Below, piece after piece: positions 1 through 39,962 of a DNA stretch of 64,000 nucleotides; position 1 is the first letter of the stretch; each line of letters begins with the position of its first letter. The notes under the pieces were generated by a model. The model did not search any database and was not told the origin of the DNA. It was given only the letters and a program-made list of their open reading frames with translations. This DNA comes from Candidatus Omnitrophota bacterium (GTDB taxonomy: Bacteria; Omnitrophota; Gorgyraeia; Gygaellales; Profunditerraquicolaceae): the NCBI GenBank assembly GCA_018822885.1, contig JAHJJA010000047.1, forward strand, positions 5,384-69,383, read 5' to 3'. A program made the position numbers and the translations under genes.

Positions 1-88
1 TATTCTCTCCTGGGGGTTTATTTTATCGTTGTTAATATTTTGTTTTATCAGGGTTTTTTCCAAGAAAAAATTTGACTAGGAGCTCAAG

Positions 89-793
89 ATGATGAATTTC
101 TTTGCGAATTGCCTTACTACTTTAAGCCTTTTGTTCGGGTTTATCTCGATAATCTTTTCTCTTGAGAGCCATTTTACCTTTGCATCCTGGGCGATCATCC
201 TTTCGGTTATCTTTGACGGCCTTGACGGGCATGTCGCGCGTATGAATCCAGTGCCCAGCGAATTCGGCAAGGAGCTTGATTCGCTTGTGGATGTTGTTGC
301 TTTTGGGGTTGCCCCGGTTGTCTTAGGGTATATTTTTGTTTATAGCGAGTTTCATTTCTGGCCTACGGTAGTATTATTTATTTATTTACTTTGTTCTATC
401 CTTCGCCTGGCAAAGTACAATATTACTCCTAAAGAAAAGATGCAAAACTACTTTTACGGTCTGCCTACTACAATGAGCGGGGGCACACTTGCTTCCTTTA
501 TTTTGATCTACAGAAGGTTCACCCAATCCCCTCCTCCGGTACTGTTCTTTTTGTTATTGGCGGCTGTCCTTGCTTTTCTCATGGTTTCCAGGGTCAAATA
601 TGCTAATTTAGACGGCATGAAGCAGATGTTTGGGAAATCGAAGTTTTTGTTATTGCTTGTGCTCTTGATTATCGCGGCCACCTTGTTCTCTTTTTATTGT
701 TTCACGTCGGTATTTTTACCTGAACTGATAGTTCTTGCGATTTTTGCGATTTATTTGATATTTTTCCCTTTCTTTCTGCGGAAATTTGTGTAG
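89..793 (+). CDS. CDP-alcohol phosphatidyltransferase (phosphatidylserine synthase-like)
   Basis: 234-aa multi-TM ORF carrying the CDP-alcohol phosphatidyltransferase signature (DGLDGHVAR...FGKELDSLVD). Exact lipid product not determinable. Confidence 0.65.
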   Translation: MMNFFANCLTTLSLLFGFISIIFSLESHFTFASWAIILSVIFDGLDGHVARMNPVPSEFGKELDSLVDVVAFGVAPVVLGYIFVYSEFHFWPTVVLFIYLLCSILRLAKYNITPKEKMQNYFYGLPTTMSGGTLASFILIYRRFTQSPPPVLFFLLLAAVLAFLMVSRVKYANLDGMKQMFGKSKFLLLLVLLIIAATLFSFYCFTSVFLPELIVLAIFAIYLIFFPFFLRKFV

Positions 794-914
794 AATATTA
801 CAAGTCGCTAGCAATAGCGAACGAGGTGTTTTTAAGTCAAGTTGTTCATAAATTCAAGACCCGATCTTAGGATGAGGTATAGATGGAGTAAGATCGGGTC
901 TTGTAAGCATAGCT

Positions 915-989
915 GCCGAGGTAGCTCAGTGGTAGAGCGCGGCCCTGAAAAGGCCGGCGTGGGAAGTCCGATTCTTCTCCTCGGCACCA
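915..989 (+). tRNA. tRNA-Phe (anticodon GAA)
   Basis: Hand-folded cloverleaf: acceptor GCCGAGG/CCTCGGC, D arm GCTC-AGTGGTA-GAGC, anticodon stem CGGCC/GGCCG with loop CTGAAAA, T arm GGAAG-TCCGATT-CTTCT, discriminator A, CCA encoded. Confidence 0.85.
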
Positions 990-995
990 TTACAT

Positions 996-1030
996 AAAGG
1001 GCAGTCATTATGACTGCCCTTTATGTTTTT
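996..1030 (+). terminator. Rho-independent terminator after tRNA-Phe
   Basis: AAAGGGCAGTCA-tta-TGACTGCCCTTT hairpin followed by ATGTTTTT. Confidence 0.6.
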
Positions 1031-1099
1031 AGTTAAGGGGCGCAGGAAATAAAAAGAAAAAATATCTCTGTTGTGATATAATCAATTACGGAGAAGAAG

Positions 1100-4000
1100 A
1101 TGAAAATAGCTATTCTGACAAATGAATACCCGCCGAATGTATATGGCGGCGCCGGAGTCCATGTTGAATATTTGACCCGCGAACTTTCCAGGCTGGAGAA
1201 CGGCGCGCACGTGGTAAAAGTCTTTTGTTTTGGAGCTCAGAAGGCTGAAAGCGCAAATTTAAGAGTTGAAGGGGTAAGCGCGCAGTATGATTTTCCGGTT
1301 AAAGACGCTCGGCATAAAAAGTTCCTGGATACCATGCTCAAAGACATCATCATTTCAGGTGAGCTTGATGATGTCGATATAGTGCATTGTCATACCTGGT
1401 ACAGCCACTTTGCGGGGCTTATGGTAAAACAGCTGTTAAACATTCCGCTTGTCCTGACAACCCACTCCCTGGAGCCGCACCGGCCGTGGAAAGCCGAACA
1501 GCTCGGTACCGCTTATAACGCGAGTTCCTGGATTGAAAGGACCGCTTATGAAAACGCGGATGGTGTCATAGCGGTCTCTAAAGCAATGAGAAAAGATATC
1601 AAGGACCTCTATAACGTGCCTTCCGAAAGGATCAAAGTAATTTATAACGGCATTGACCTAAATCAATATAAGCCGGTTAAGGACAAGGCAGTCCTTAATA
1701 AATACAAAATAGACCCGAAAATCCCGTATATACTTTTTGTCGGCAGGATCACCAGGCAAAAAGGGATCATCCACCTCGTGAACGCGATCAAGCACATTAA
1801 AGCGGGGCATCAGGTGGTTTTATGCGCGGGCGCTCCTGACACAAAAGAAATAGTGGAGGAAATGAAAGTCAAAGTTGAGAAGGTCAGAAAAGAAACAAAG
1901 AATAAAGTCATCTGGATAGAGGAAATGGTTTCTAAAGAAGATATCATAGCGCTTTATTCACAGGCAGCACTTTTTGTCTGTCCCTCGGTTTATGAGCCTT
2001 TTGGCATAATCAATATTGAGGCAATGGCGTGCGAGACCCCGGTAGTCGCGACAAAAGTAGGAGGCATCCCTGAAATAGTCGTGCCAAATGAAACAGGGTT
2101 ACTGGTGCCGATCCAGCACAAAGGCGCCAATGACTTCGAGCCGGTTGAGCCGGAAAAATTCTCAGAGGATTTAGCTTGCGCGATCAATTCTATCATAGAC
2201 GATGCCGGTAAACTTAGAGATATGGGGCTTAAGTCAAGGCAGCGGGTAGTGGAGCTTTTCAGCTGGAAGAGTATAGCCGAGGAGACCCTTGATTTTTATA
2301 AGCACCTTATTGAAAAGAAGGGTGCGCTAGACGTCAAAGGTAAACAGCGTGTGACTATTGAAAAGGTCCTGCCTGAGGTGGACAATGGAAAATATCCGAT
2401 AAAAAGGGTGCCCGGACAGCGCGTGAAAGTCATGGCCCATATTATTTCAGATGGGCACGATGAGAAGACGGCTTTTCTTCATTATTCTCATGCTTCGGAT
2501 AAGACATGGCAGGAAAAAGAACTGCTCCTGCAATATAACGACGAATATCTCGGGGATTTTGAGATTGAAAAAGAAGGTACCTATTTTTACACGGTGCGTT
2601 CCTGGATCGACCACTTTAAGACCTGGCGCAGCGAACTCGAGAAAAAGATCGCGGTAAAACAGGATGTTGCTGTAGATCTTTTAATAGGCGTTTCTTTGAT
2701 AGAGGAAGCATTGGGAAGGGCAGGGAAGAAAGATGGGGAGAAATTATCCGGATATATTGAAAAAATTAAACGTAAGGGTAAGGATCAGATAAAAGCAGCT
2801 TTGAGTAAAGAGCTCCTTGAGCTTATGAAAAAATATCCTGAAAAGGCCCTTATCTCGCAATATCACAACGAACTTGAAGTGAAAGTGGAGAGGGACAGGG
2901 CATCTTTTAGCAGCTGGTACGAGATGTTTCCTCGTTCAACTTCCAGGGTGATAGGTAAGCATGGGACCTTTAAGGATTGTGAGAAACTGCTTCCGGAAAT
3001 CGCAGGTATGGGTTTTGATGTTCTATATTTTCCACCCATCCACCCAATAGGGGTAAAAAACAGGAAGGGCAAGAATAATTCTATAAAAGCCACAGCTTCA
3101 GATCCGGGTAGCCCTTGGGCAATAGGTGGGAAGGAGGGCGGGCATAAAGCAATACATCCAGAGCTGGGGAGTTTTGAGGATTTTGCTTCGCTGGTTGCCA
3201 AGGCCAAAAAACACGGGATGGAGATAGCTCTTGATATTGCTTTTCAGTGTTCAAATGACCATCCGTATATCAAAGAGCATCCCGAGTGGTTCTCCTGGAG
3301 GCCGGATAGGACTATCCAGCACGCTGAAAACCCACCGAAAAAATATGAAGATATCGTCCCTTTTAATTTTAGAACAGACAACTGGAAAGAGTTGTGGGAA
3401 GAGTTAAAATCAATTTTCATCTTCTGGGCACAAAAGGGGGTAAGGATATTCAGGGTAGACAATCCTCACACAAAGCCGGTCGCCTTCTGGGAATGGCTAA
3501 TAGCCGAGGTAAAAAAAGAATATCCTGACACACTCTTTCTTTCCGAGGCTTTTACCAGGCCGAAGATGATGAACATGCTTGCAAAAGTTGGTTTTTCACA
3601 GTCATATACTTACTTCACCTGGAGAAATACAAAGCATGAGCTTGTCGAATATATTAATGACTTGACCAAGACCGCAGCTGCTGAGTTTTTCAGGCCGAAT
3701 TTCTGGCCGAATACTCCTGATATCCTGCACGAATACCTGCAGAAAGGAGGCAGGCCCGCTTTTATCATACGGCTTGTGCTTGCAGGCACGATTTCTTCTA
3801 ATTACGGGATATATGGGGGCGCCTACATAACCTGCCAGAACGAGCCCTATCCGGGTAAAGAAGAGTATGTAAACAACGAAAAGTATGAATTAAAAAACTG
3901 GAATCTAAACGCGCCGGGCAATATTAAGAAAGAAGTCACCCTAATAAACAAGATCAGGAAGGAAAACCCGGCGTTTCAGGAAACAAACAATATAAGCCTC

Positions 4001-4267
4001 AGGGAAACGAATAACCCCAACATAATTTCTTATGTAAAAGCCACTAGAGATCTGTCCAGCGTAATTTTGACCGTTGTAAATCTTGACCCGCGCAACACGC
4101 ATGCGGGCCTGGTAAGTGTGCCTTTAGGCGAACTTGGCTTGCCGGACGACGAAGATTATGAAGTCGAGGATTTATTGAACAATGAAACTTATATCTGGAA
4201 TGGCGAGTGGAACTATGTTGAACTTGATCCTGCCATAACCCCTGCTCATATATTTCGGATCAAGTGA
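1100..4267 (+). CDS. glgE: Bifunctional GT4 glycosyltransferase (glycogen synthase/GlgM-like) fused to alpha-1,4-glucan:maltose-1-phosphate maltosyltransferase (GlgE)
   Basis: The N-terminal ~400 aa has a GT4/glycogen-synthase fold (KIAILTNEYPP..GGAGVHV..., EPFGIINIEAMACETPVVAT..GGIPEIV). Residues ~410-560 match the GlgE N-terminal domain (VTIEKVLPEVDNGKYPIKRVPGQRVKVMAHIISDGHD). The rest is the GlgE GH13_3 catalytic core (FDVLYFPPIHPIG..., RIFRVDNPHTKP, FLSEAFTRPK). Confidence 0.75.
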   Translation: MKIAILTNEYPPNVYGGAGVHVEYLTRELSRLENGAHVVKVFCFGAQKAESANLRVEGVSAQYDFPVKDARHKKFLDTMLKDIIISGELDDVDIVHCHTWYSHFAGLMVKQLLNIPLVLTTHSLEPHRPWKAEQLGTAYNASSWIERTAYENADGVIAVSKAMRKDIKDLYNVPSERIKVIYNGIDLNQYKPVKDKAVLNKYKIDPKIPYILFVGRITRQKGIIHLVNAIKHIKAGHQVVLCAGAPDTKEIVEEMKVKVEKVRKETKNKVIWIEEMVSKEDIIALYSQAALFVCPSVYEPFGIINIEAMACETPVVATKVGGIPEIVVPNETGLLVPIQHKGANDFEPVEPEKFSEDLACAINSIIDDAGKLRDMGLKSRQRVVELFSWKSIAEETLDFYKHLIEKKGALDVKGKQRVTIEKVLPEVDNGKYPIKRVPGQRVKVMAHIISDGHDEKTAFLHYSHASDKTWQEKELLLQYNDEYLGDFEIEKEGTYFYTVRSWIDHFKTWRSELEKKIAVKQDVAVDLLIGVSLIEEALGRAGKKDGEKLSGYIEKIKRKGKDQIKAALSKELLELMKKYPEKALISQYHNELEVKVERDRASFSSWYEMFPRSTSRVIGKHGTFKDCEKLLPEIAGMGFDVLYFPPIHPIGVKNRKGKNNSIKATASDPGSPWAIGGKEGGHKAIHPELGSFEDFASLVAKAKKHGMEIALDIAFQCSNDHPYIKEHPEWFSWRPDRTIQHAENPPKKYEDIVPFNFRTDNWKELWEELKSIFIFWAQKGVRIFRVDNPHTKPVAFWEWLIAEVKKEYPDTLFLSEAFTRPKMMNMLAKVGFSQSYTYFTWRNTKHELVEYINDLTKTAAAEFFRPNFWPNTPDILHEYLQKGGRPAFIIRLVLAGTISSNYGIYGGAYITCQNEPYPGKEEYVNNEKYELKNWNLNAPGNIKKEVTLINKIRKENPAFQETNNISLRETNNPNIISYVKATRDLSSVILTVVNLDPRNTHAGLVSVPLGELGLPDDEDYEVEDLLNNETYIWNGEWNYVELDPAITPAHIFRIK

Positions 4268-4299
4268 ACAGACAGCTAAATTAGGTATTTTCTGCATCC

Positions 4300-4340
4300 A
4301 AAAAGAAAAACCCCGCAGCCAGATTTCTCTGCGGGGTTTT
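4300..4340. terminator. Bidirectional intrinsic terminator between glgE fusion (+) and csp (-)
   Basis: A-run, then CCCCGCAG-N10-CTGCGGGG, then TTTT. Gives a U-tract on either strand. Confidence 0.7.
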
Positions 4341-4360
4341 GTGTGTCAGAATGCTTTAGC

Positions 4361-4561
4361 TTATATTTTCGAAACGTTGGTTGCCTGGTCGCCCTTAGGC
4401 CCCTGGGTAACTTCGTATTCGACTGCGTCGCCTTCTGCTAAGGATTTATAGCCTTCTGACTTGATCGCGCTGTAGTGTACAAAGACGTCTTTTCCATCCT
4501 CGCCAGTGACAAAGCCGTAACCCTTTTGGTTCGAGAACCACTTTACTTTGCCTTTTGCCAT
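4361..4561 (-). CDS. csp: Cold-shock protein (CspA family)
   Basis: 66 aa, [18 protein letters not shown]...VFVHYSAI with RNP1/RNP2 motifs. Confidence 0.9.
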
Positions 4562-4682
4562 TTATTTCTGTTCACCCCCTTTACAACAAAAAAACCGTAA
4601 AGCGTTTTGTTTAGTTCTTTGCTTTTACGGTTTCGTCCATGTTACTAATCGCTATGCTCCTTTGTTTCTGTAGCTTGAAAAT

Positions 4683-4710
4683 AATATAACACATTTTTTT
4701 ATATTGTCAA
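4683..4710 (-). promoter_or_regulatory. Sigma70-type promoter for csp with ~115-nt 5'UTR
   Basis: Minus strand reads TTGACA-N16-TATATT (plus 4705-4710 and 4683-4688). A long 5'UTR is typical of cspA-like genes. Confidence 0.5.
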
Positions 4711-4752
4711 TCTAAACTTTATGCTATAATTACATAAATATTTTAGCAGTTT

Positions 4753-4985
4753 GCCGATGTAGCTTAAGCCCCGAAAGGCGCTTCGTGCATTCGGGTCCCG
4801 ACTTACGACATTAGATGTCGTTTGGTCGGAACGTCGGGATTGGTAGATTGGTGGTAGGATTATCATATGCCGATGTAGCTCAGCCCCGACGCTCGCTTAC
4901 GCTCGGTCGGGGTCCCGACTTCCGACACTAGATGTCGTTTGGTCGGAACGTCGGGATTGGTAGATTGGTGGTAGGATTATCATAT
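4753..4985 (+). repeat. Two tandem ~116-nt structured repeat units abutting tRNA-Thr, each starting with a copy of the tRNA's first 15 nt
   Basis: Unit 1 is 4753-4868 and unit 2 is 4869-4985. Both begin GCCGATGTAGCT(T/C)A, matching the tRNA-Thr 5' end. Each has a GC-clamped hairpin (CCCGAA-N14-TTCGGG in unit 1, CCCCGAC-GCTCGCTTACGCTCG-GTCGGGG in unit 2) whose stem changes are compensatory. A second hairpin TCCCGAC-N30-GTCGGGA follows in both. Confidence 0.7.
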
Positions 4986-5058
4986 GCCGATGTAGCTCAG
5001 TTGGTAGAGCAGCGCTTTCGTAAAGCGCGGGCCGGAGGTTCGATCCCTCTCATCGGCT
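4986..5058 (+). tRNA. tRNA-Thr (anticodon CGT)
   Basis: Acceptor GCCGATG/CATCGGC, D arm GCTC-AGTTGGTA-GAGC, anticodon stem GCGCT/AGCGC with loop TTCGTAA, T arm GGAGG-TTCGATC-CCTCT. CCA not encoded. Confidence 0.85.
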
Positions 5059-5071
5059 AAATTTTGTCTTT

Positions 5072-6328
5072 ATGCCCAAAATAAGAGAAGTATTAAAGAA
5101 CCGCGATTTCTTTTTGTTGTGGGTCGGCCAGATAATCTCCCAACTTGGTGACAGGTTGGGGTTTATGGCCCTGATCGGTTTTGCCTATTCTAAAAAAGAC
5201 CAAGGTTCGCCCGCCGAAATATTCAAGATCCTCCTGTTTACGATAATCCCGGTTTTTCTTATCGGCCCGATAGCCGGGGCTTATGTGGACAGGTGGGACA
5301 GGCGCAGGACGATGTATCTTTGCGACCTTCTGCGGATGCTCTTGGTTTTGATCATCCCGTTTTTTTTATTTTATCAGAGGAATCTGCCCATAGCTTATTG
5401 TATCATATTCCTGATCTTCTGTCTGGCGCGTTTCTTTGTGCCTGCGAAGTTAGCTATTGTTCCTGATCTGGTGGAGAAGAAACATCTTTTAATGGCTAAT
5501 TCGCTGGTGAATGTGACAGGGATGATCGCTTTTGTCATCGGCTCTGGAGTCGGAGGTGTCTTGGTAGAATGGGTGGGGGCTGAAAAGGGGTTCTATCTGG
5601 ATGCCTTGAGTTTTCTTGTCTCCGCATTGCTAATATTCTCTATTTCGACCCGCTGGGCAGTGAAAATGAACTTTAAGAGGATAAGCGGAGAGATAGTCGA
5701 GGTGATCAAGAAGTCAGTTGCGCAGGAAATAAAAGAGGGGTTTATTTATTTTGTAAGCAAAAAGGATATAAGATTTACTTCCTGGATTCTCTTTGTAGTA
5801 GCTTCTGCTTTAGGCATTCTATCGGTTGTCTCTATCGTATTTATCCAAAATACCCTGCACTCTGCGACTAAAGACCTTGGGCTTTTGATCATGTTTTTAG
5901 GGGCAGGGCTGTTTGTGGGGACGCTTGCTTACGGGAAATTCTGCCAAAGGGTCTCTCATTATAAGGCGATCTTTGTGGCATTTATCTTAAGCGGCGGCCT
6001 GATCATCTGCTTTACCTTAAGTTTAAGCAGGTATCCTCATTTTGGCATTGCCATGGCCCTTGCGTTGATGTTCGGGTTGTTGGTCTCGCCGATCATGTCT
6101 GTGGTCAATACTATTATCCATAAGACCAGCGATAATGATATGCGGGGCAAGATCTTTAGCTCCTTAGAAATCGTAATGCATTTTGGATTTTTATTATTCA
6201 TGTGGATAAGCAGTATCCTCGCGGAGCGTTTTTCAAATTCGCTAATACTTGTAATCGTCGGGTGTGTTTTTATCGCGCTGGGTATTATTAATCTTATTTT
6301 TCATCGTAGGATTCCATGGTTAGATTAG
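5072..6328 (+). CDS. MFS transporter
   Basis: 418 aa, 12 predicted TM segments, MFS-like N-terminus with conserved GxxxDRxGRR-like motif (YVDRWDRRRT). Confidence 0.65.
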   Translation: MPKIREVLKNRDFFLLWVGQIISQLGDRLGFMALIGFAYSKKDQGSPAEIFKILLFTIIPVFLIGPIAGAYVDRWDRRRTMYLCDLLRMLLVLIIPFFLFYQRNLPIAYCIIFLIFCLARFFVPAKLAIVPDLVEKKHLLMANSLVNVTGMIAFVIGSGVGGVLVEWVGAEKGFYLDALSFLVSALLIFSISTRWAVKMNFKRISGEIVEVIKKSVAQEIKEGFIYFVSKKDIRFTSWILFVVASALGILSVVSIVFIQNTLHSATKDLGLLIMFLGAGLFVGTLAYGKFCQRVSHYKAIFVAFILSGGLIICFTLSLSRYPHFGIAMALALMFGLLVSPIMSVVNTIIHKTSDNDMRGKIFSSLEIVMHFGFLLFMWISSILAERFSNSLILVIVGCVFIALGIINLIFHRRIPWLD

Positions 6329-7623
6329 AAGAGCATAAACAGCAAACAGAACATAAGGCGATAGAAAACCTTCCCATGCCGCAGAGGGTCTATATTACTT
6401 TATCCCAGCATCTGGGTAAGGTGTGCGAGCCTTTAGTTAAGGTTGGGGATCCGGTATTTTTGGGGCAGAAGATAGCCGCTGCTCAGGCGCATGTATTTTC
6501 ACTGGTATATTCTTCTGTTTCCGGCAAAGTAGGCGCGATCCAGGAGTGGCCGCATCCTGTGTTGGGGCGCTGCAAAGCAATCGTGATCGAGAATGACGGG
6601 TTAGATAAGTTACAAGTTCAGAAGGTCGCCAGGTCACAAGAAGAAGTAGGCAGATTGACTCCCGAAGTAATACGTAACATCGTATTCGAGGCCGGGATAG
6701 TCGGGATGGGCGGGGCAAGTTTCCCGTCGCATATAAAACTTAATCCTCCGAAGCCTGTGGATATATTAGTTATTAACGGCGCTGAATGCGAGCCGTATTT
6801 GACCAGTGACTCAAGGCTTATGATTGAGAAGGCAAAGGAGATTCTTCTGGGTTCAGAGCTGGTGGCTAAATGCGTCGGGGCCAAGGATGTCTATATAGGT
6901 ATTGAAGATAATAAGCCGGAAGCGATTGAGATTATAACTCACCAGGTCACAAAGTCACCCTCTGACTTCGCAAGAGGTGGGCAAAGTTACAAGTTGAAAG
7001 TGCTAAAATCCGCTTATCCGCAAGGAGGGGAGAAGCAGCTTATAAAGAATGTTTTAGGAAAAGAAGTGCCTTCAGGTAAGCTGCCTTTTGATATCGGGGT
7101 GGTGGTGCAGAATGTGGCTACTTGTTTTGCTATATATGAAGCGGTTTATTTAGGTAAGCCGTTATATGAAAGAGTGGTCACAGTGACAGGGGATTGCCTT
7201 GAAAGCCCCAAGAATCTTCTTGCGCGCATTGGCACGCCGATAAAAGAATTAATAGATTTTTGTGGCCCCCGGAGTAAAGAACCATCAAAGATAATCATGG
7301 GAGGTCCGATGATGGGGTTTGCGCAATTTACTGACCAGGTCCCGGTAATTAAAAGCACAAACGGCGTCCTGGTTTTATCCGACACCGGTTACAAGACAAT
7401 AGAAGACGCTCTTTGCATACGTTGCAGTCGCTGTGTCCAGGAGTGTCCGGTGGGCCTTATGCCTTGCCTTATTGCTATGGCTTCGCAGAAAGAAAGGTGG
7501 GATCTGGCTAATGATCACAGATGCATGGACTGTATGGAGTGTGGTGTATGCAGTTATACCTGTCCGCAGAAGATAAATCTCGTCCAGCTAATAAAGCAGG
7601 CAAAAATGAAGGTGGCAAGATGA
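6316..7623 (+). CDS. rnfC: Rnf electron transport complex subunit C
   Basis: 435 aa with GMGGASFP motif, NGAECEPYLTSD, and two 4Fe-4S CxxCxxCxxxCP motifs. Confidence 0.85.
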   Translation: MVRLEEHKQQTEHKAIENLPMPQRVYITLSQHLGKVCEPLVKVGDPVFLGQKIAAAQAHVFSLVYSSVSGKVGAIQEWPHPVLGRCKAIVIENDGLDKLQVQKVARSQEEVGRLTPEVIRNIVFEAGIVGMGGASFPSHIKLNPPKPVDILVINGAECEPYLTSDSRLMIEKAKEILLGSELVAKCVGAKDVYIGIEDNKPEAIEIITHQVTKSPSDFARGGQSYKLKVLKSAYPQGGEKQLIKNVLGKEVPSGKLPFDIGVVVQNVATCFAIYEAVYLGKPLYERVVTVTGDCLESPKNLLARIGTPIKELIDFCGPRSKEPSKIIMGGPMMGFAQFTDQVPVIKSTNGVLVLSDTGYKTIEDALCIRCSRCVQECPVGLMPCLIAMASQKERWDLANDHRCMDCMECGVCSYTCPQKINLVQLIKQAKMKVAR

Positions 7624-8156
7624 AAGAGATAGTCAGGTACAGTTTGGTGTTAGGGGTGATCTGTTTTATTTCCGGGACGCTTTTGGCTGTGGTCAATAGC
7701 GCTGCACAGCCAAAGATCGCGCTCCAGAAGGAGGAGGCAGAGAAGCTGGCGCTTAAAGAGGTAGTCCCTCAAGCGGATGATTTTAGACCGGTAAAGGAAG
7801 GCGAGAAGTTACTCTATTACAGCGCTTATAATAAATCGGGTAAACTTATGGGTTTTGCTATTAAAACCGAAGCAACAGGATACTCTTCCGACATCCAGGC
7901 CCTGACAGGGCTTGGTCTTGATTTTAATATAATCTGTGTTAAGGTATTATCTCAAAATGAGACCCCCGGGCTTGGCAGCAGGATAGAGGAGACGTCTTTT
8001 CTAGAGCAATTTAAAGGCAAGGATCTTGGGTCATTTGATAAAATAGAGGCGATAAGCGGAGCTACTATTTCTTCCTCGGCCCTGATGGATTCGATTAAAA
8101 AGAAGATCTCCGAGACTAAAGATGAATTACAAAGAGAGATAAAGAATGCAAAATAA
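7620..8156 (+). CDS. rnfG: Rnf subunit G (FMN-binding)
   Basis: Start ATG at 7620 overlaps the rnfC stop (ATGA) and follows an AAGGTGG RBS. N-terminal TM helix, ETPGLG motif and SGATISS FMN-attachment motif. The ORF-track start at 7521 is rejected. Confidence 0.8.
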   Translation: MKEIVRYSLVLGVICFISGTLLAVVNSAAQPKIALQKEEAEKLALKEVVPQADDFRPVKEGEKLLYYSAYNKSGKLMGFAIKTEATGYSSDIQALTGLGLDFNIICVKVLSQNETPGLGSRIEETSFLEQFKGKDLGSFDKIEAISGATISSSALMDSIKKKISETKDELQREIKNAK

Positions 8157-9099
8157 TCTGATAGTAAGTTCTTCGCCTCATATAGCTTCTCATGACGCAA
8201 CGCCAAAGATCATGTGGTCTGTGTTCTTTGCGCTACTTCTTTCAGGGGCCGCAGGGGTGTTTATTTTTGGCATGCGGGCGCTTATGGTGATATTGGTCTC
8301 AATCGCCTCATGTGTTGCGACGGAATACTTGATCCAGAAGTTGCGCCGTAAAAAGATCACTATTAGCGACGGTTCAGCCGCTCTTACCGGGCTTTTGCTT
8401 GCCTATAATCTTTCTTCGACTGTGCCGCTTTGGATGCCGCTTGTTGGAGGATTTTTTGCCATAGCTATCTGTAAGCAGGCCTTTGGCGGGTTGGGAAGGA
8501 ATATATTCAATCCTGCTTTGGCTGCGCGGGCGTTTTTGCTTGCCTCATGGCCAAAACATATGACTGATTTCGCAAGGCCATTTACTTTAGATGCTATTAG
8601 CAGCGCAACGCCCCTTGCCTGTTTTAAACTCGGTAAAGTAAGCGGGATGGATGAGCTGGGGCTGTCTTACTGGGATATGTTTCTTGGTAAGAGAGGGGGA
8701 TGTTTGGGCGAGGTTTGCATAGTGGCTTTGTTGATCGCAGCCGTTTATTTATTATGGAAGAAATATATCTGGTGGCAGACGCCTTTGGGTTTTATACTTA
8801 CCGTCGGAGGCCTGAGTTGGGTCTTCGGGCAACAGGGTTTCTTAAAAGGCGATTTTCTTTTTAGTATACTTTCCGGAGGATTGATCCTGGGCGCATTTTT
8901 CATGGCTACGGATTATGTGACCTCGCCGTTGACAAAGCAAGGGCAGTTGGTATTTGGCGTGGGTTGCGGCCTGATTACATTTGTGATCCGCCGCTTTGGC
9001 GGCTATCCGGAAGGGGTCTCATATTCGATCCTGATAATGAATGCTGTTGTTCCTTTGATCGACAGGTATGTGCGCCCGAGAGTCTACGGAGTAAAATGA
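8146..9099 (+). CDS. rnfD: Rnf subunit D
   Basis: 317-aa polytopic membrane protein with SSPH and NPALAARAF motifs typical of RnfD/NqrB. Confidence 0.85.
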   Translation: MQNNLIVSSSPHIASHDATPKIMWSVFFALLLSGAAGVFIFGMRALMVILVSIASCVATEYLIQKLRRKKITISDGSAALTGLLLAYNLSSTVPLWMPLVGGFFAIAICKQAFGGLGRNIFNPALAARAFLLASWPKHMTDFARPFTLDAISSATPLACFKLGKVSGMDELGLSYWDMFLGKRGGCLGEVCIVALLIAAVYLLWKKYIWWQTPLGFILTVGGLSWVFGQQGFLKGDFLFSILSGGLILGAFFMATDYVTSPLTKQGQLVFGVGCGLITFVIRRFGGYPEGVSYSILIMNAVVPLIDRYVRPRVYGVK

Positions 9100-9722
9100 A
9101 GACGCTGATAAAAGAATTTACTAAAGGCATCACTATCGAGAACCCTACCTTTGGGTTAATATTAGGATTGTGCCCTACGCTTGCGGTTTCTACATCTCTG
9201 ATCAATGCTCTAGGCATGGGGGTGGCAGCTACATTTGTGCTGGTCGGTTCAAATACAATTATTTCTTTGGTGAGGCGTCTTATTCCGGGCCGCATCCGCC
9301 TTCCGGCTTTTATTGTCATAATCGCTACTTTTGTTACCATCTGTGAATTGGCTATGAAGGCTTATTTGCCGGCGCTGGATTCGGCTTTGGGGATATTCGT
9401 TCCCCTGATCGTGGTCAACTGTATAATCCTGGCCCGGGCAGAGGCATTTGCCTCTAAGAATAAAGTCTTACCATCTATCCTCGATGGGTTAGGTATGGGG
9501 GTTGGTTTTACAATCGGTTTAAGTGTAATCGCTTTGATCCGAGAGATCTTAGGGGCTGGCAGTATTGCCGGTATAAAGATACTGCCTGGTTTTGAGCCGG
9601 TGGCCATGATGATCCTTGCTCCTGGAGCATTATTAACTCTGGGTTTATTGATCGGGCTTACTAATTTATTAAGGAATTTACGCGGTAAGCCCAATCTTAG
9701 CAGAAAAGGAGGCTGTTGTTAA
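9096..9722 (+). CDS. rnfE: Rnf subunit E
   Basis: ATG at 9096 overlaps the rnfD stop (ATGA). MKTLIKEFTKGI...NPTFGLILGLCP matches the RnfE/NqrD family. Confidence 0.85.
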   Translation: MKTLIKEFTKGITIENPTFGLILGLCPTLAVSTSLINALGMGVAATFVLVGSNTIISLVRRLIPGRIRLPAFIVIIATFVTICELAMKAYLPALDSALGIFVPLIVVNCIILARAEAFASKNKVLPSILDGLGMGVGFTIGLSVIALIREILGAGSIAGIKILPGFEPVAMMILAPGALLTLGLLIGLTNLLRNLRGKPNLSRKGGCC

Positions 9723-17198: not shown

Positions 17199-19859
17199 AT
17201 GAAAAATCTCTGGAATTTTTCCGATTCTGCCGCAAGTTTTGAGTTTAAAACCGCCCCAAATCTTAATTCGCTGTATCTGCCTTTATGCAATGATCATCTT
17301 ATGTCCTCGATCACCCCCAGTCTGCACGGAGATATTAAAAGCGGACAAAATTCATTCCTGCTTACCCCTGTTTCCCGCATTGATCTGACAGTTTCACGCT
17401 CATCCCGTAATTTCTGGATTTACATTGATAAAAATAAAATATGGTCAGCAACCGGGGTTTCTAAGGATATAAAACAACTGAAGCAGGATAAGGCTGACTT
17501 TTCCGCAGGCCTGCTTTGGCAAAAAGTCACAAGGGCCAACAAAAAAATAGGCCTTAGCGCAGAAATACTTTCTTTTGTCCCCTCGACAGGCGAGCCGGTA
17601 GAAATAATGCGGGTCAGCCTGAAAAATATTTCCTCAAAGAAAATCCAATTGACTCCAACCGCGGCGATCCCGATTTACGCGCGCAGCGCCAATAACATCC
17701 GCGACCACAGGCATGTGTCTTCATTGTTGCAACGGATCTATTTGCATAAATTCGGAGTCATTTCAAAGCCGACTCTTTCTTTTGATGAAGCAGGCCATAA
17801 GCCAAATAAGGAAAATTATTTTGTTTTAGGCTGGGATGAAGATTTTAAGGCGCCGCAATACCTGTATCCGACGCAGGAGATGTTTTGCGGTGAGGGTGGG
17901 GACTTGGAGGCGCCGCTTTCTGTCCTTAATAATCTATCTCCAGATGAAAGCCCTATTCAGGGTAAAGAGGCTATAGGCGCCCTTGGTTTTAAAAGTATCT
18001 GCCTTGCGCCCGGAGCCGCTCATTCTTACATCATTCTGATGGGAATCAGTGATGATACCGCTTCGATAAACAAGATCATCAGAAGATTTAAATCCATTTC
18101 TAAAGTCAACGCGGCATTGGAATCGACAAAAAAATCCTGGGTTAAGGTTTCAGAGAAGATAAGGCTTTCTACGGGCGACGATGATTTTGACCGGTGGTTC
18201 CGTTGGGTGAGTATCCAGCCTACATTAAGAAGGATATTCGGCTGTTCTTTTCTGCCGGACTTTGATTACGGTAAGGGGGGCAGGGGCTGGCGCGATTTAT
18301 GGCAGGATTGCCTTAGCCTTATACTTAATAACCCCAACGAGGTGCGCGCCCTCCTGATCAATAATTTTTCCGGCGTAAGGATCGACGGTTCAAATGCTAC
18401 AATTATCGGCAACAAGCCGGGTGAGTTTATAGCCGACCGTAATGATATCCCCAGGGTTTGGATGGACCATGGGGTCTGGCCGTTGATCACCCTTGATCTA
18501 TATATGAATGAGACAGGGGATTTTGAAATCCTGTTTGAAGAGACGACTTATTTTCGCGACCAGCATATTTTCCGCTCTCAAAAAACAGATAAAGAATGGA
18601 AGCCTTATTTTGAAAACAAATTAAAGACTGCTTCAGGCAAGCTTTATCGTTCGACTATCTTAGAGCATCTGTTAGTGCAGAATCTGGCGCAGTTTTTTAA
18701 TGTCGGTAAACATAACTTTGTCCGTCTTGAGGGCGGCGATTGGAATGATGGGCTTGATATGGCTAAAGATAACGGCGAGAGCGTGGCGTTTAGCGCGATG
18801 TACGCGTATAATCTTTTACGCCTATCAGAGCTCCTGTTTAAGGCCGGAAGAAAGAAGATTTTCTTTGCCAGAGAATTAAAGATCCTCTTGAAGAAGGTCG
18901 ATTACAACAATATTCAGGCAAAACATAAATTGCTGGATGAGTATTTTACGAGGACAAAAGGCACGCTTTCAGGGGCTAAGGTTGAAGTAGATGCGGTTTC
19001 GTTGGCCAAAGACCTGAAATCAAAAGCCGAATGGCTGATGGCGCGTGTGCGCAAGAACGAATGGTTAAAGGATGATTTTTTTAACGGTTATTACGATGAC
19101 AATTGCAGGCGCGTGGAAGGAAAAGTCAATGGCCTTTTAAGGATGAGCCTGACATCGCAGGTGTTTCCGATAATGAGCGGCGCCGCTACTGACAGCCAGA
19201 TAAAAGAGATCTTAAAATGCGCCGATAGATACCTTCTGGATAAAAAGCTCAACGGTTATCATCTAAATACCGATTTCAAAAAGGAACAGCATGACTTGGG
19301 GCGCGCGTTTTCCTTCGCCTATGGCGAGAAGGAGAACGGCTCGTTTTTTAACCATATGATCGTGATGTTTGCCTTTGCGCTTTACAGGCGCGGCTACAAC
19401 TTAGAGGGTTGGCGCGTTTTAAGTTCTATTTATAATATGGTTATGGATAGCGGAAAAAGCAGGATTTATCCTTGTCTGCCGGAATATTTTAATCCGGAGG
19501 GCAGAGGGATGTATTCTTATTTGACCGGCTCCGCAAGCTGGTTTGTGCTGACTATGCTCACACAGGTTTTTGGGGTAAGGGGTGAGGCAGGAGACTTGCT
19601 CATCGAGCCTAAATTATGCGCCAAGCATTTCGGCAAAAATAAGACCTTGAGCATTGAAAGGGTTTTTGCCGGGAAAAATATTAAAGTGAATTTTGTCTGT
19701 CCGCGCAAGGCCTCTAATGCTAAATTACAGATTAAAAGGGCAAGTTTGAACAACCGTAATCTATTGATAAAAGAGGATAACAGAGTTTTGATTCCCCGCA
19801 AAACCGTAATTGCTCTACCGTCTGATAAAATAAATAGTATCGAGGTAGTTTTGGGATAA
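17199..19859 (+). CDS. Putative glycoside phosphorylase/hydrolase of the (alpha/alpha)6-barrel GH94/GH65-like superfamily
   Basis: 886 aa. Motifs GGRGWRDLWQD and EGGDWNDGLDMA resemble the conserved RD..QD and DWND catalytic-region motifs of cellobiose-phosphorylase-like enzymes. Family assignment is tentative. Confidence 0.5.
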   Translation: MKNLWNFSDSAASFEFKTAPNLNSLYLPLCNDHLMSSITPSLHGDIKSGQNSFLLTPVSRIDLTVSRSSRNFWIYIDKNKIWSATGVSKDIKQLKQDKADFSAGLLWQKVTRANKKIGLSAEILSFVPSTGEPVEIMRVSLKNISSKKIQLTPTAAIPIYARSANNIRDHRHVSSLLQRIYLHKFGVISKPTLSFDEAGHKPNKENYFVLGWDEDFKAPQYLYPTQEMFCGEGGDLEAPLSVLNNLSPDESPIQGKEAIGALGFKSICLAPGAAHSYIILMGISDDTASINKIIRRFKSISKVNAALESTKKSWVKVSEKIRLSTGDDDFDRWFRWVSIQPTLRRIFGCSFLPDFDYGKGGRGWRDLWQDCLSLILNNPNEVRALLINNFSGVRIDGSNATIIGNKPGEFIADRNDIPRVWMDHGVWPLITLDLYMNETGDFEILFEETTYFRDQHIFRSQKTDKEWKPYFENKLKTASGKLYRSTILEHLLVQNLAQFFNVGKHNFVRLEGGDWNDGLDMAKDNGESVAFSAMYAYNLLRLSELLFKAGRKKIFFARELKILLKKVDYNNIQAKHKLLDEYFTRTKGTLSGAKVEVDAVSLAKDLKSKAEWLMARVRKNEWLKDDFFNGYYDDNCRRVEGKVNGLLRMSLTSQVFPIMSGAATDSQIKEILKCADRYLLDKKLNGYHLNTDFKKEQHDLGRAFSFAYGEKENGSFFNHMIVMFAFALYRRGYNLEGWRVLSSIYNMVMDSGKSRIYPCLPEYFNPEGRGMYSYLTGSASWFVLTMLTQVFGVRGEAGDLLIEPKLCAKHFGKNKTLSIERVFAGKNIKVNFVCPRKASNAKLQIKRASLNNRNLLIKEDNRVLIPRKTVIALPSDKINSIEVVLG

Positions 19860-39683: not shown

Positions 39684-39962
39684 ATGGCAAGGACAGCAGC
39701 AGCAGGAAAAGCGATTCAACTTAAAATCAACGCACCTAAAGCAAAGAGGGTGAGTGTTGCCGGATCTTTTAATAATTGGGATGATAAATCTTTTAGCGCT
39801 AAGAAGAACACTAAAGGTGAGTGGGCAGTGAAATTAAATTTAAAGCCGGGAAAGTACGAATATAAGTTTGTTGTGGATGGTTCCTGGGTAACTGATCCTA
39901 AATCAAAGTGCCAGATTTTCAATTCCATGGGGACACAAAACAGCATATTGGAAGTAAAATAA
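39684..39962 (+). CDS. Stand-alone CBM48 / AMPK-beta-type glycogen-binding module protein
   Basis: 92 aa. ...KRVSVAGSFNNWDDKSFSAKKNTKGEWAVKLNLKPGKYEYKFVVDGSWVTDP matches isoamylase-N/CBM48 modules. Confidence 0.6.
   Translation: MARTAAAGKAIQLKINAPKAKRVSVAGSFNNWDDKSFSAKKNTKGEWAVKLNLKPGKYEYKFVVDGSWVTDPKSKCQIFNSMGTQNSILEVK

What the first reader, a model, noticed from the sequence alone, without database searches (positions are those of the whole stretch)
1100..4267. Single 1055-aa polypeptide fusing a GT4 glycogen-synthase/GlgM-like glycosyltransferase to a complete GlgE maltosyltransferase
Residues 1-~400 are a GT4 retaining glycosyltransferase of the glycogen synthase / maltose-1-phosphate synthase (GlgM) type. 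Residues ~410-1055 are a full GlgE with its N-terminal domain and GH13 core. In the characterised GlgE pathway, maltose-1-phosphate is made by separate enzymes (TreS plus Pep2, or GlgM) and then polymerised by GlgE. A GlgM-like-GlgE fusion would channel sugar-nucleotide plus glucose-1-phosphate directly into alpha-1,4-glucan in one protein. I do not recall this architecture being described. A separate stand-alone CBM48 glycogen-binding module gene (39684-39962) and a GH94/GH65-like phosphorylase (17199-19859) elsewhere in the window suggest an elaborated glucan metabolism. No glgA/glgB/glgC/glgP is present in the window.
Basis: partly seen in the sequence, partly recalled or inferred. Interest (0 to 1): 0.55.

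Follow-up and report, generated by a model that had tools for sequence, protein, structure and literature searches.

The report
Fused GlgM–GlgE alpha-glucan synthase gene
One intact gene in this Candidatus Omnitrophota genome joins the enzyme that makes maltose-1-phosphate (GlgM) to the enzyme that polymerises it into alpha-1,4-glucan (GlgE); this is a real, conserved and apparently undescribed fusion of two consecutive steps of a known glycogen pathway.

Summary
Window 1100-4267 (+) is one uninterrupted 1055-aa ORF. Residues 1-405 are a GlgM-type GT4 enzyme: TIGR02149 scores 506 bits against a 302 cut-off, and the best PDB hit is M. smegmatis GlgM 6TVP. Residues 416-1055 are a complete GlgE, with 596 bits to S. 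coelicolor GlgE over its whole length. All catalytic and substrate-binding residues I checked are conserved in both halves.

It is not an artefact. A second assembly carries the identical ORF. Nine further 90%-identity clusters of full-length fusions (49-85% identity) come from JGI, ENA, NCBI and Logan, in unrelated gene neighbourhoods. dN/dS is about 0.1 in both halves.

NJ trees of both halves place each of two fused clades next to relatives with separate, adjacent glgM-glgE genes, so the fusion probably arose twice from an operon.

GenBank annotates this gene only as a 681-aa GlgE, so the fusion is hidden there. No searched paper describes the architecture, including a 2024 review (first 300,000 characters held) that lists other glucan-enzyme fusions.

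The likely function is one polypeptide that makes alpha-1,4-glucan from NDP-glucose plus glucose-1-phosphate. Channelling of maltose-1-phosphate is inferred, not shown. This is a new variant of a known kind, of moderate interest.

The parts
915..989 (+). tRNA-Phe(GAA) upstream of the fusion gene
   Evidence: ARAGORN
992..1026 (+). Terminator-like hairpin (16 bp, T-tail) that ends the tRNA-Phe transcript, so the fusion gene must have its own promoter
   Evidence: Terminator scan
1074..1082 (+). Possible extended -10 promoter element, TGaTATAAT. Read by eye; the consensus scan did not call it because there is no good -35
   Evidence: Sequence; inference only
1090..1096 (+). Shine-Dalgarno-like GGAGAAG; its GGAG core (1090-1093) lies 6 nt before the ATG at 1100
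   Evidence: Sequence
1100..4267 (+). Whole glgM-glgE fusion ORF, 1055 codons plus stop
   Evidence: Identical ORF in GCA_018824265.1
1100..2314 (+). GlgM-like GT4 (GT-B) domain, aa 1-405. The eight ADP-glucose contacts of M. smegmatis GlgM are conserved: H122, V159, N183, R216, K221, E299, G302, I303
   Evidence: TIGR02149 at 506 bits. PDB 6TVP at 333 bits over aa 1-402. Residue list from PMC7137382, positions. Seven are invariant and I303 is nearly invariant across 10 fusions
2315..2344 (+). Short junction, aa 406-415 (KGALDVKGKQ). Its length is fixed in clade A but its sequence varies. It corresponds to the first residues (MEIDGKK) of the separate GlgE in the unfused relative L004
   Evidence: Elevated non-synonymous divergence (pN 0.255)
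2345..2893 (+). GlgE domains N and S, aa 416-598
   Evidence: Pfam PF11896 at 168 bits. Aligned to S. coelicolor GlgE from residue 20
2894..4003 (+). GlgE GH13_3 catalytic core, aa 599-968. Nucleophile D787 (nt 3458-3460), acid/base E816 (3545-3547) and D874 (3719-3721). Donor-site Q716, N744, K747, Y749. Acceptor-site H790, W841, R842
   Evidence: Alignment to 5VSJ. Residue roles from PMC7805345. Positions. All are invariant in the 10 fusions
4004..4264 (+). GlgE C-terminal beta-sandwich domain, aa 969-1055
   Evidence: Pfam PF21702 at 92 bits

Best explanation
This is a genuine, expressed-as-one-piece bifunctional enzyme. The N-terminal GT4 domain (GlgM, EC 2.4.1.342) transfers glucose from ADP-glucose, or less well UDP-glucose, to glucose-1-phosphate and gives alpha-maltose-1-phosphate. 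The C-terminal GH13_3 domain (GlgE, EC 2.4.99.16) transfers that maltosyl unit to the non-reducing end of an alpha-1,4-glucan and releases phosphate. The gene arose by loss of the stop codon, spacer and start codon between adjacent glgM and glgE genes of an operon, probably twice within Candidatus Omnitrophota. Shown here: the ORF is intact, both domains belong to these families, all checked active-site residues are conserved, and the fusion is conserved under purifying selection. Inferred: the enzyme activities and the donor preference. Also inferred is the selective benefit, namely 1:1 stoichiometry and local hand-over of maltose-1-phosphate, whose accumulation is toxic in mycobacteria.
For: The ORF is intact and has its own RBS, after an upstream terminator. 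The N half matches TIGR02149 at 506 bits against a 302 cut-off, and other GT4 equivalogs fall far below their cut-offs. The best PDB hit for the N half is M. smegmatis GlgM 6TVP (E 3e-98), and the next hit scores only 126 bits. All eight ADP-glucose-contacting residues named in PMC7137382 are present. The C half aligns end to end with S. coelicolor GlgE (E 1e-177) and keeps D787, E816 and D874 plus the donor and acceptor residues. All of these columns are invariant or nearly invariant across 10 fusions that are only 49-85% identical. An independent assembly has the identical ORF. Fusion orthologues sit in unrelated neighbourhoods. dN/dS against the P0001 orthologue is 0.10 for GlgM, 0.14 for GlgE N/S and 0.09 for the GlgE core, at dS 0.73-0.83. 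The sister lineage L004 has separate glgM (71% identical) and glgE (67% identical) genes 57 nt apart, and its GlgE N-terminus, MEIDGKKRV, matches the window linker ALDVKGKQRV. The NJ trees of the two halves agree with each other. Eleven of 80 GlgE loci from other phyla have a GlgM-like gene within 10 kb. M1P toxicity is described in PMC4663749 (abstract shown).
Against: No biochemical data exist for any member. The acceptor site that makes a GT4 enzyme a GlgM rather than a glycogen synthase has not been defined structurally (PMC7137382), so glucose-1-phosphate specificity cannot be read from the sequence. No glgC, galU or glgB is present in the 64-kb window, so the donor supply and any branching are unknown. 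The AlphaFold model was too poor to say whether the two active sites face each other (mean pLDDT 59.8, pTM 0.40). GenBank annotates only a 681-aa GlgE starting at M375, although the upstream 374 codons are open, conserved and under selection.
Confidence: 0.8

Rival explanations
1. The N-terminal GT4 domain is a true glycogen or primer synthase that elongates or initiates glucan directly from NDP-glucose. On this view the protein combines two polymerising activities rather than a synthase-then-polymerase relay.
For: TIGR02149 is still named 'glycogen synthase'. M. tuberculosis GlgM has trace glycogen synthase activity. The determinants of acceptor specificity are unknown.
Against: The N half aligns with M. 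smegmatis GlgM over its whole length (333 bits). That enzyme has no detectable glycogen synthase activity. The review notes that GT4 'GlgA' proteins co-occurring with GlgE are taken to be GlgM. Fusion to, or adjacency with, the M1P-consuming enzyme in many lineages is what a GlgM role predicts.
Confidence: 0.08
2. One of the two domains is catalytically dead and serves only as a scaffold or regulatory module. The branching-enzyme half of the chlamydial GlgA-GlgB fusion is an example of this.
For: A precedent exists: the GlgA-GlgB fusion of Waddlia has an inactive GlgB domain (PMC7935935).
Against: All checked catalytic and substrate-binding residues of both halves are invariant or nearly invariant in 10 fusions as divergent as 49% identity. 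dN/dS is equally low in both halves.
Confidence: 0.05
3. The gene is functionally two products. Translation also, or only, starts internally, for example at M375 as in the GenBank annotation, and gives a stand-alone GlgE.
For: NCBI annotates a 681-aa protein from M375 in two assemblies.
Against: No Shine-Dalgarno-like sequence precedes M375. M375 lies inside the last helices of the GT4 fold. The 1.4 kb upstream is left without any gene call in that record, yet it is an open, conserved GlgM sequence. Other pipelines call the full-length protein for orthologues.
Confidence: 0.04
4. The fusion is an artefact: a sequencing frameshift, a lost stop codon or a chimeric assembly joining two neighbouring genes.
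For: Two high-GC hits, P0016 and P0033, do look like frameshift-garbled pseudo-fusions. tblastn also made three stop-separated in-frame gene pairs look fused.
Against: An independent assembly has the identical ORF with only one SNP in 5 kb, and that SNP lies outside the gene. Five clade-A clusters share the same junction length at 79-85% identity. Four clade-B clusters come from other sources. Purifying selection acts across the whole ORF.
Confidence: 0.02

Closest known systems
Mycobacterial GlgC-GlgM-GlgE route to alpha-glucan (Koliwer-Brandl et al. 2016, PMC4981310; review PMC11046441)
   Same: It uses the same two enzyme families in the same pathway order. GT4 GlgM makes maltose-1-phosphate and GH13_3 GlgE polymerises it. 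The active-site residues are conserved.
   Different: In mycobacteria the two are separate proteins. From my own recollection, not checked here, they are encoded at separate loci (glgM beside glgC, glgE beside glgB). Here they form one polypeptide, in a non-actinobacterial phylum, with no glgC or glgB nearby. The review states that GlgM is mostly actinobacterial and that other GlgE-bearing bacteria use only TreS-Pep2.
TreS-Mak (TreS-Pep2) fusion proteins of the GlgE pathway (Chlamydiae, Pseudomonas; PMC7935935, PMC11046441)
   Same: They are also a fusion of consecutive GlgE-pathway enzymes, and one partner produces maltose-1-phosphate.
   Different: TreS-Mak fuses the two steps upstream of M1P and releases M1P. 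The present fusion joins the M1P producer to the M1P consumer, so the toxic intermediate need never leave the protein.
GlgA-GlgB fusion of Waddlia and Estrella (PMC7935935)
   Same: It is a fusion of a glucan-chain-forming glycosyltransferase with a GH13 glucan enzyme.
   Different: It joins a GT5 synthase to a branching enzyme. The GH13 half is inactive and the fusion looks like pathway decay. Here both halves are conserved under selection.
Unfused adjacent glgM-glgE gene pairs in relatives (L004; Nitrospirota MAGs L005 and L006; Chloroflexi L007, L038 and L073; Ca. Thiosymbion L041, L042 and L049)
   Same: They have the same gene order, 50-71% identity, and gaps of 39 to about 800 nt between the genes. 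Their two gene trees agree with each other.
   Different: A stop codon and a start codon separate the two genes.

Membership tests
[quoted passage not shown] | Full-length match to the family model above its curated cut-off, and better than to any other GT4 family | tested here: met
   TIGR02149 scores 506 bits against a cut-off of 302 over aa 1-403. The next family, MshA, scores 135 bits against its cut-off of 462.
[quoted passage not shown] | Closest solved structure is GlgM, and the ADP-glucose-binding residues are conserved (His109, Val146, Asn171, Arg207, Lys212, Glu289, Gly292, Ile293 of the M. smegmatis enzyme) | tested here: met
   6TVP matches at E 3e-98 over aa 1-402. All eight residues are present as H122, V159, N183, R216, K221, E299, G302 and I303.
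[quoted passage not shown] | Uses glucose-1-phosphate, not glucan, as acceptor | not testable with these tools
   The acceptor site is undefined even in the crystal structure. Only indirect support is available, from fusion or adjacency to GlgE.
[quoted passage not shown] | Complete GlgE domain set: N/S domains, GH13 core and C domain | tested here: met
   PF11896 scores 168 bits, PF00128 30 bits and PF21702 92 bits. The C half aligns to S. coelicolor GlgE residues 20-659 at 596 bits.
[quoted passage not shown] | Catalytic Asp394, Glu423 and Asp480; M1P-site Gln324 and Asn352 (plus Lys355 and Tyr357, from memory); acceptor-site His397, Trp448 and Arg449 (S. coelicolor numbering) | tested here: met
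   They are present as D787, E816, D874, Q716, N744, K747, Y749, H790, W841 and R842. All are invariant in the fusion alignment.
[quoted passage not shown] | Maltosyl transfer from M1P to alpha-1,4-glucan, demonstrated | not testable with these tools
   This needs an enzyme assay.
Complete GlgE pathway (M1P source, GlgE and branching enzyme GlgB) | A glgB gene and a sugar-nucleotide source (glgC or galU) are present in the genome | tested here: inconclusive
   None is present among the window ORFs of 370 aa or more, nor in the flanks of fusion orthologues. The rest of the genome could not be reached.

The most novel reading that the evidence does not exclude
The fusion is a self-contained, one-polypeptide alpha-1,4-glucan synthase. 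It evolved at least twice independently in Omnitrophota because tethering GlgM to GlgE channels, or at least stoichiometrically couples, the toxic intermediate maltose-1-phosphate. The unfused glgM-glgE operons found in labelled Nitrospirota, Chloroflexi, Deltaproteobacteria, Elusimicrobia and Ca. Thiosymbion genomes would then mean that the sugar-nucleotide-fed GlgM-GlgE route is a widespread primary glycogen pathway outside the Actinobacteria, contrary to the current review-level view.
Probability: 0.3. Interest if true: 0.6.

Novelty: new variant of a known kind. Interest (0 to 1): 0.45.

Why it matters
A fusion of the M1P producer with the M1P consumer is natural 'Rosetta-stone' evidence that GT4 'glycogen synthases' of this family feed GlgE outside the Actinobacteria. 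The 2024 review still treats GlgM as largely confined to Actinobacteria.

It offers a compact test system for several questions:
- whether M1P, whose build-up kills M. tuberculosis, is channelled between the two enzymes;
- how GlgM binds glucose-1-phosphate, since no ligand-bound structure exists;
- whether a single gene is enough to make amylose-like glucan from NDP-glucose plus G1P.

It also exposes an annotation problem. GenBank records this gene as a 681-aa GlgE with 1.4 kb of 'empty' DNA upstream, so pathway surveys of Omnitrophota would miss the GlgM step.

Tried and rejected
1. An exhaustive HMMER search of 1.84 billion 50%-identity representatives gave no representative carrying both domains among the best 150. 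The known fusions are evidently hidden behind single-domain representatives, so this search could not measure how common the fusion is. The many hits of 1000-1150 aa turned out to be GlgE with a different N-terminal extension (a GH13-like domain, or GH57+DUF3536) and not GT4.

It did not return the window's own lineage, so it is a biased sample and not a census.

3. Three loci (L005-L007) looked like fusions in tblastn, with a single HSP over residues 1-1054. ORF listing showed in-frame stop codons between two genes, so I rejected them as fusions.

4. P0016 and P0033, which are high-GC, contain frameshift-like garbled stretches. I did not count them.

5. AlphaFold2 on the 10-sequence fusion alignment gave mean pLDDT 59.8 and pTM 0.40. 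That is unusable for inter-domain geometry, so I ran no fold search.

6. I looked for conserved neighbours. The MFS gene next to the fusion in the window and the one in L004 are not homologous, and the neighbourhoods of orthologues differ. There is therefore no conserved operon partner.

7. A second profile search with the fusion alignment returned the same nine fusion clusters and nothing new.
Full report
**1. The observation**

Window 1100-4267 (+) is a single 1055-codon ORF with an ATG start. It follows tRNA-Phe (915-989) and a strong terminator-like hairpin (992-1026). A GGAGAAG ribosome-binding sequence lies just upstream of the ATG, with its GGAG core 6 nt before it. By eye there is also a TGaTATAAT extended -10 element at 1074-1082. 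Downstream lie a convergent 66-aa cold-shock-like gene and tRNA-Thr. The gene is therefore monocistronic.

Pfam finds both halves of a GT4 GT-B fold at residues 15-338, GlgE domain N/S at 416-598, a GH13 core from 622, and the GlgE C domain at 969-1054.

**2. Identity of the two halves**

*N-terminal half.*
- It matches NCBIfam TIGR02149 at 506 bits against a cut-off of 302. Every other GT4 family falls far below its own cut-off.
[quoted passage not shown] The next hit scores 126 bits.
- The GlgM structure paper lists eight side chains that contact ADP-glucose (PMC7137382). All eight are present here as H122, V159, N183, R216, K221, E299, G302 and I303.

*C-terminal half.*
- It aligns end to end with S. 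coelicolor GlgE isoform I (5VSJ, E 1e-177, residues 20-659 of the chain).
- The nucleophile, the acid/base and the third carboxylate are D787, E816 and D874.
- The M1P-site residues are Q716 and N744. K747 and Y749 also belong to this site, but their role is from my memory only.
- The acceptor-site residues are H790, W841 and R842 (roles from PMC7805345; positions).
- All of these are invariant across ten fusion proteins that are only 49-85% identical; I303 is nearly invariant.

**3. Is the fusion real?**

The evidence says yes.
- A second GenBank assembly (GCA_018824265.1, contig JAHJGW010000147.1) is 99.98% identical to window 1-5000. Its single SNP lies outside the gene, and the whole 1055-aa ORF is identical.
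- A search of 5.8 billion protein clusters found nine further 90%-identity clusters of full-length fusions. Five are 79-85% identical (clade A, 1059-1081 aa). Four are 49-51% identical (clade B, 1068-1075 aa). They come from JGI, ENA, NCBI and Logan assemblies.
- Their gene neighbourhoods are unrelated to each other and to the window. The fusion therefore does not come from one misassembled region.
- dN/dS between the window gene and the P0001 orthologue is 0.10 for GlgM, 0.14 for GlgE N/S and 0.09 for the GlgE core, at dS 0.73-0.83. Only the 10-residue junction is fast-evolving.

GenBank annotates this gene in two assemblies as a 681-aa GlgE that starts at M375, and leaves 1.4 kb upstream with no gene call. 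No ribosome-binding sequence precedes M375. I regard that annotation as a truncation that hides the fusion.

**4. Origin**

A relative (L004, GCA_964453675.1) has separate glgM (405 aa, 71% identical) and glgE (647 aa, 67% identical) genes 57 nt apart. Its GlgE starts MEIDGKKRV, which corresponds to the window junction ALDVKGKQRV. The clade-A fusion thus looks like a simple deletion of the stop codon, spacer and start codon.

A partial scan of GTDB species genomes found more adjacent glgM-glgE pairs. They occur in MAGs labelled Nitrospirota, Chloroflexi and Ca. Thiosymbion. Overall, 11 of 80 fetched GlgE loci carry a GlgM-like gene (above 420 bits) within 10 kb, including loci labelled Deltaproteobacteria and Elusimicrobia. 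That sample is biased, because one of the two search patterns came from GlgM.

NJ trees of the two halves agree with each other. They place clade A beside L004 (split genes) and clade B beside L005-L007 (split genes). Clade A has a junction of fixed length, about 8-10 residues. Clade B has variable linkers of 21-36 poorly conserved residues. Two independent fusions is the simplest reading. It rests on distance trees without support values.

**5. Mechanism**

By homology the protein should carry out two consecutive reactions:
- ADP-glucose (or UDP-glucose) + glucose-1-phosphate -> maltose-1-phosphate + NDP;
- maltose-1-phosphate + glucan(n) -> glucan(n+2) + Pi.

The family assignments and the intact active sites are shown here. 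The activities themselves, the donor preference and the glucose-1-phosphate acceptor specificity are inferred. The acceptor site of GlgM is not structurally defined.

The selective advantage I propose is fixed 1:1 stoichiometry and local transfer of M1P, whose accumulation is lethal in M. tuberculosis (PMC4663749 abstract). This is inference. The AlphaFold model was too poor to show how the two active sites are arranged (mean pLDDT 59.8, pTM 0.40).

The sources of NDP-glucose and G1P, and any branching enzyme, are not in the window. All ORFs of 370 aa or more were scanned, and the only nucleotidyltransferase is GlmU. The GH94-like protein at 17199-19859 could in principle supply alpha-G1P, and the 92-aa CBM48 protein could bind glucan. 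Neither is linked to the fusion by synteny.

**6. Comparison with what is known**

The enzymes and the pathway are those of the mycobacterial GlgC-GlgM-GlgE route. The new element is the architecture: producer and consumer of M1P sit in one chain. The taxonomic setting is also new.

The 2024 Chemical Reviews survey of prokaryotic alpha-glucan enzymes lists TreS-Mak, GlgA-GlgB and GlgB-MalQ fusions but no GlgM-GlgE fusion; only its first 300,000 of 445,374 characters were held and searched. It states that GlgM is mostly actinobacterial and that other GlgE-bearing bacteria use only TreS-Pep2. Five full-text searches found no description of the fusion. None of the fusion clusters is listed as present in UniRef. 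InterPro itself could not be queried.

**7. Verdict**

The finding is real and correctly interpreted. It is a new domain architecture built from two known enzymes, that is, a new variant of a known kind. Fusions of consecutive pathway steps are common, so a specialist would find it useful rather than startling. The likely recurrence of the fusion and the wide non-actinobacterial spread of glgM-glgE pairs add some weight. Interest is 0.45.

Noticed in passing
window 1100-2222, and L001 4572-6001: GenBank annotates this gene as a 681-aa GlgE starting at M375 (P0006, two assemblies). The 1.4 kb that encodes the GlgM domain has no gene call there, so the fusion is invisible in the public annotation.
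   Followed up: yes
window 4752-5004: A tandem repeat with a ~117-nt period lies just upstream of tRNA-Thr (4986-5058). It has two 91-nt copies that are 98% identical, plus a third partial unit. Each unit ends with the first ~15 nt of the tRNA (GCCGATGTAGCTCAG). It looks like repeated duplication of the tRNA leader or promoter region together with the tRNA's 5' end.
   Followed up: partly
L005 4541-6736 and L006 13250-15405: In two MAGs labelled Nitrospirota, the unfused glgM-glgE pair is followed directly by an ABC-2 permease and a Wzt-type ATPase with a Wzt_C carbohydrate-binding domain. This arrangement is typical of polysaccharide export and hints that the GlgM-GlgE glucan might be exported there.
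   Followed up: partly
Proteins P0013/P0014, P0035-P0037, P0045/P0049/P0053, P0057/P0060/P0061, P0043: GlgM-like GT4 domains occur in several other pathway fusions in metagenomes. Partners include inorganic pyrophosphatase, a GlgC-like nucleotidyltransferase, UDP-glucose pyrophosphorylase (PF01704), a maltokinase-like APH domain, and a CBM48+GH13 enzyme. Some may be gene-calling artefacts; I did not check them individually.
   Followed up: partly
Proteins P0122-P0165: Many GlgE proteins of 1000-1150 aa carry a different N-terminal extension. P0123, the one scanned, has a second GH13-like (hDGE_amylase/Alpha-amylase) domain, and the N-terminal sequences of many others look similar by eye. P0122 has GH57+DUF3536 fused to GlgE.
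   Followed up: partly
window 39684-39962: A stand-alone 92-aa CBM48/AMPK-type glycogen-binding module with no obvious signal peptide. It sits between a peptidoglycan-binding-domain protein and a radical SAM protein.
   Followed up: partly
window 17199-19859: An 886-aa GH94-like protein, with supersandwich and catalytic domains at modest scores (40 and 89 bits), and no NCBIfam family match. It may be a divergent glycoside phosphorylase that could yield glucose-1-phosphate.
   Followed up: partly
window 6316-9722; L003 1-6543: The window carries Rnf complex genes (RnfC, an FMN-binding protein and RnfD confirmed by Pfam; the further downstream ORFs were not scanned). The closest fusion orthologue, P0001 from JGI sample 3300035659, lies beside Wood-Ljungdahl genes (FTHFS, MTHFR, CODH/ACS). 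This fits the Rnf-bearing, glycogen-synthesising Omnitrophota described from Ace Lake (PMC8542988).
   Followed up: no
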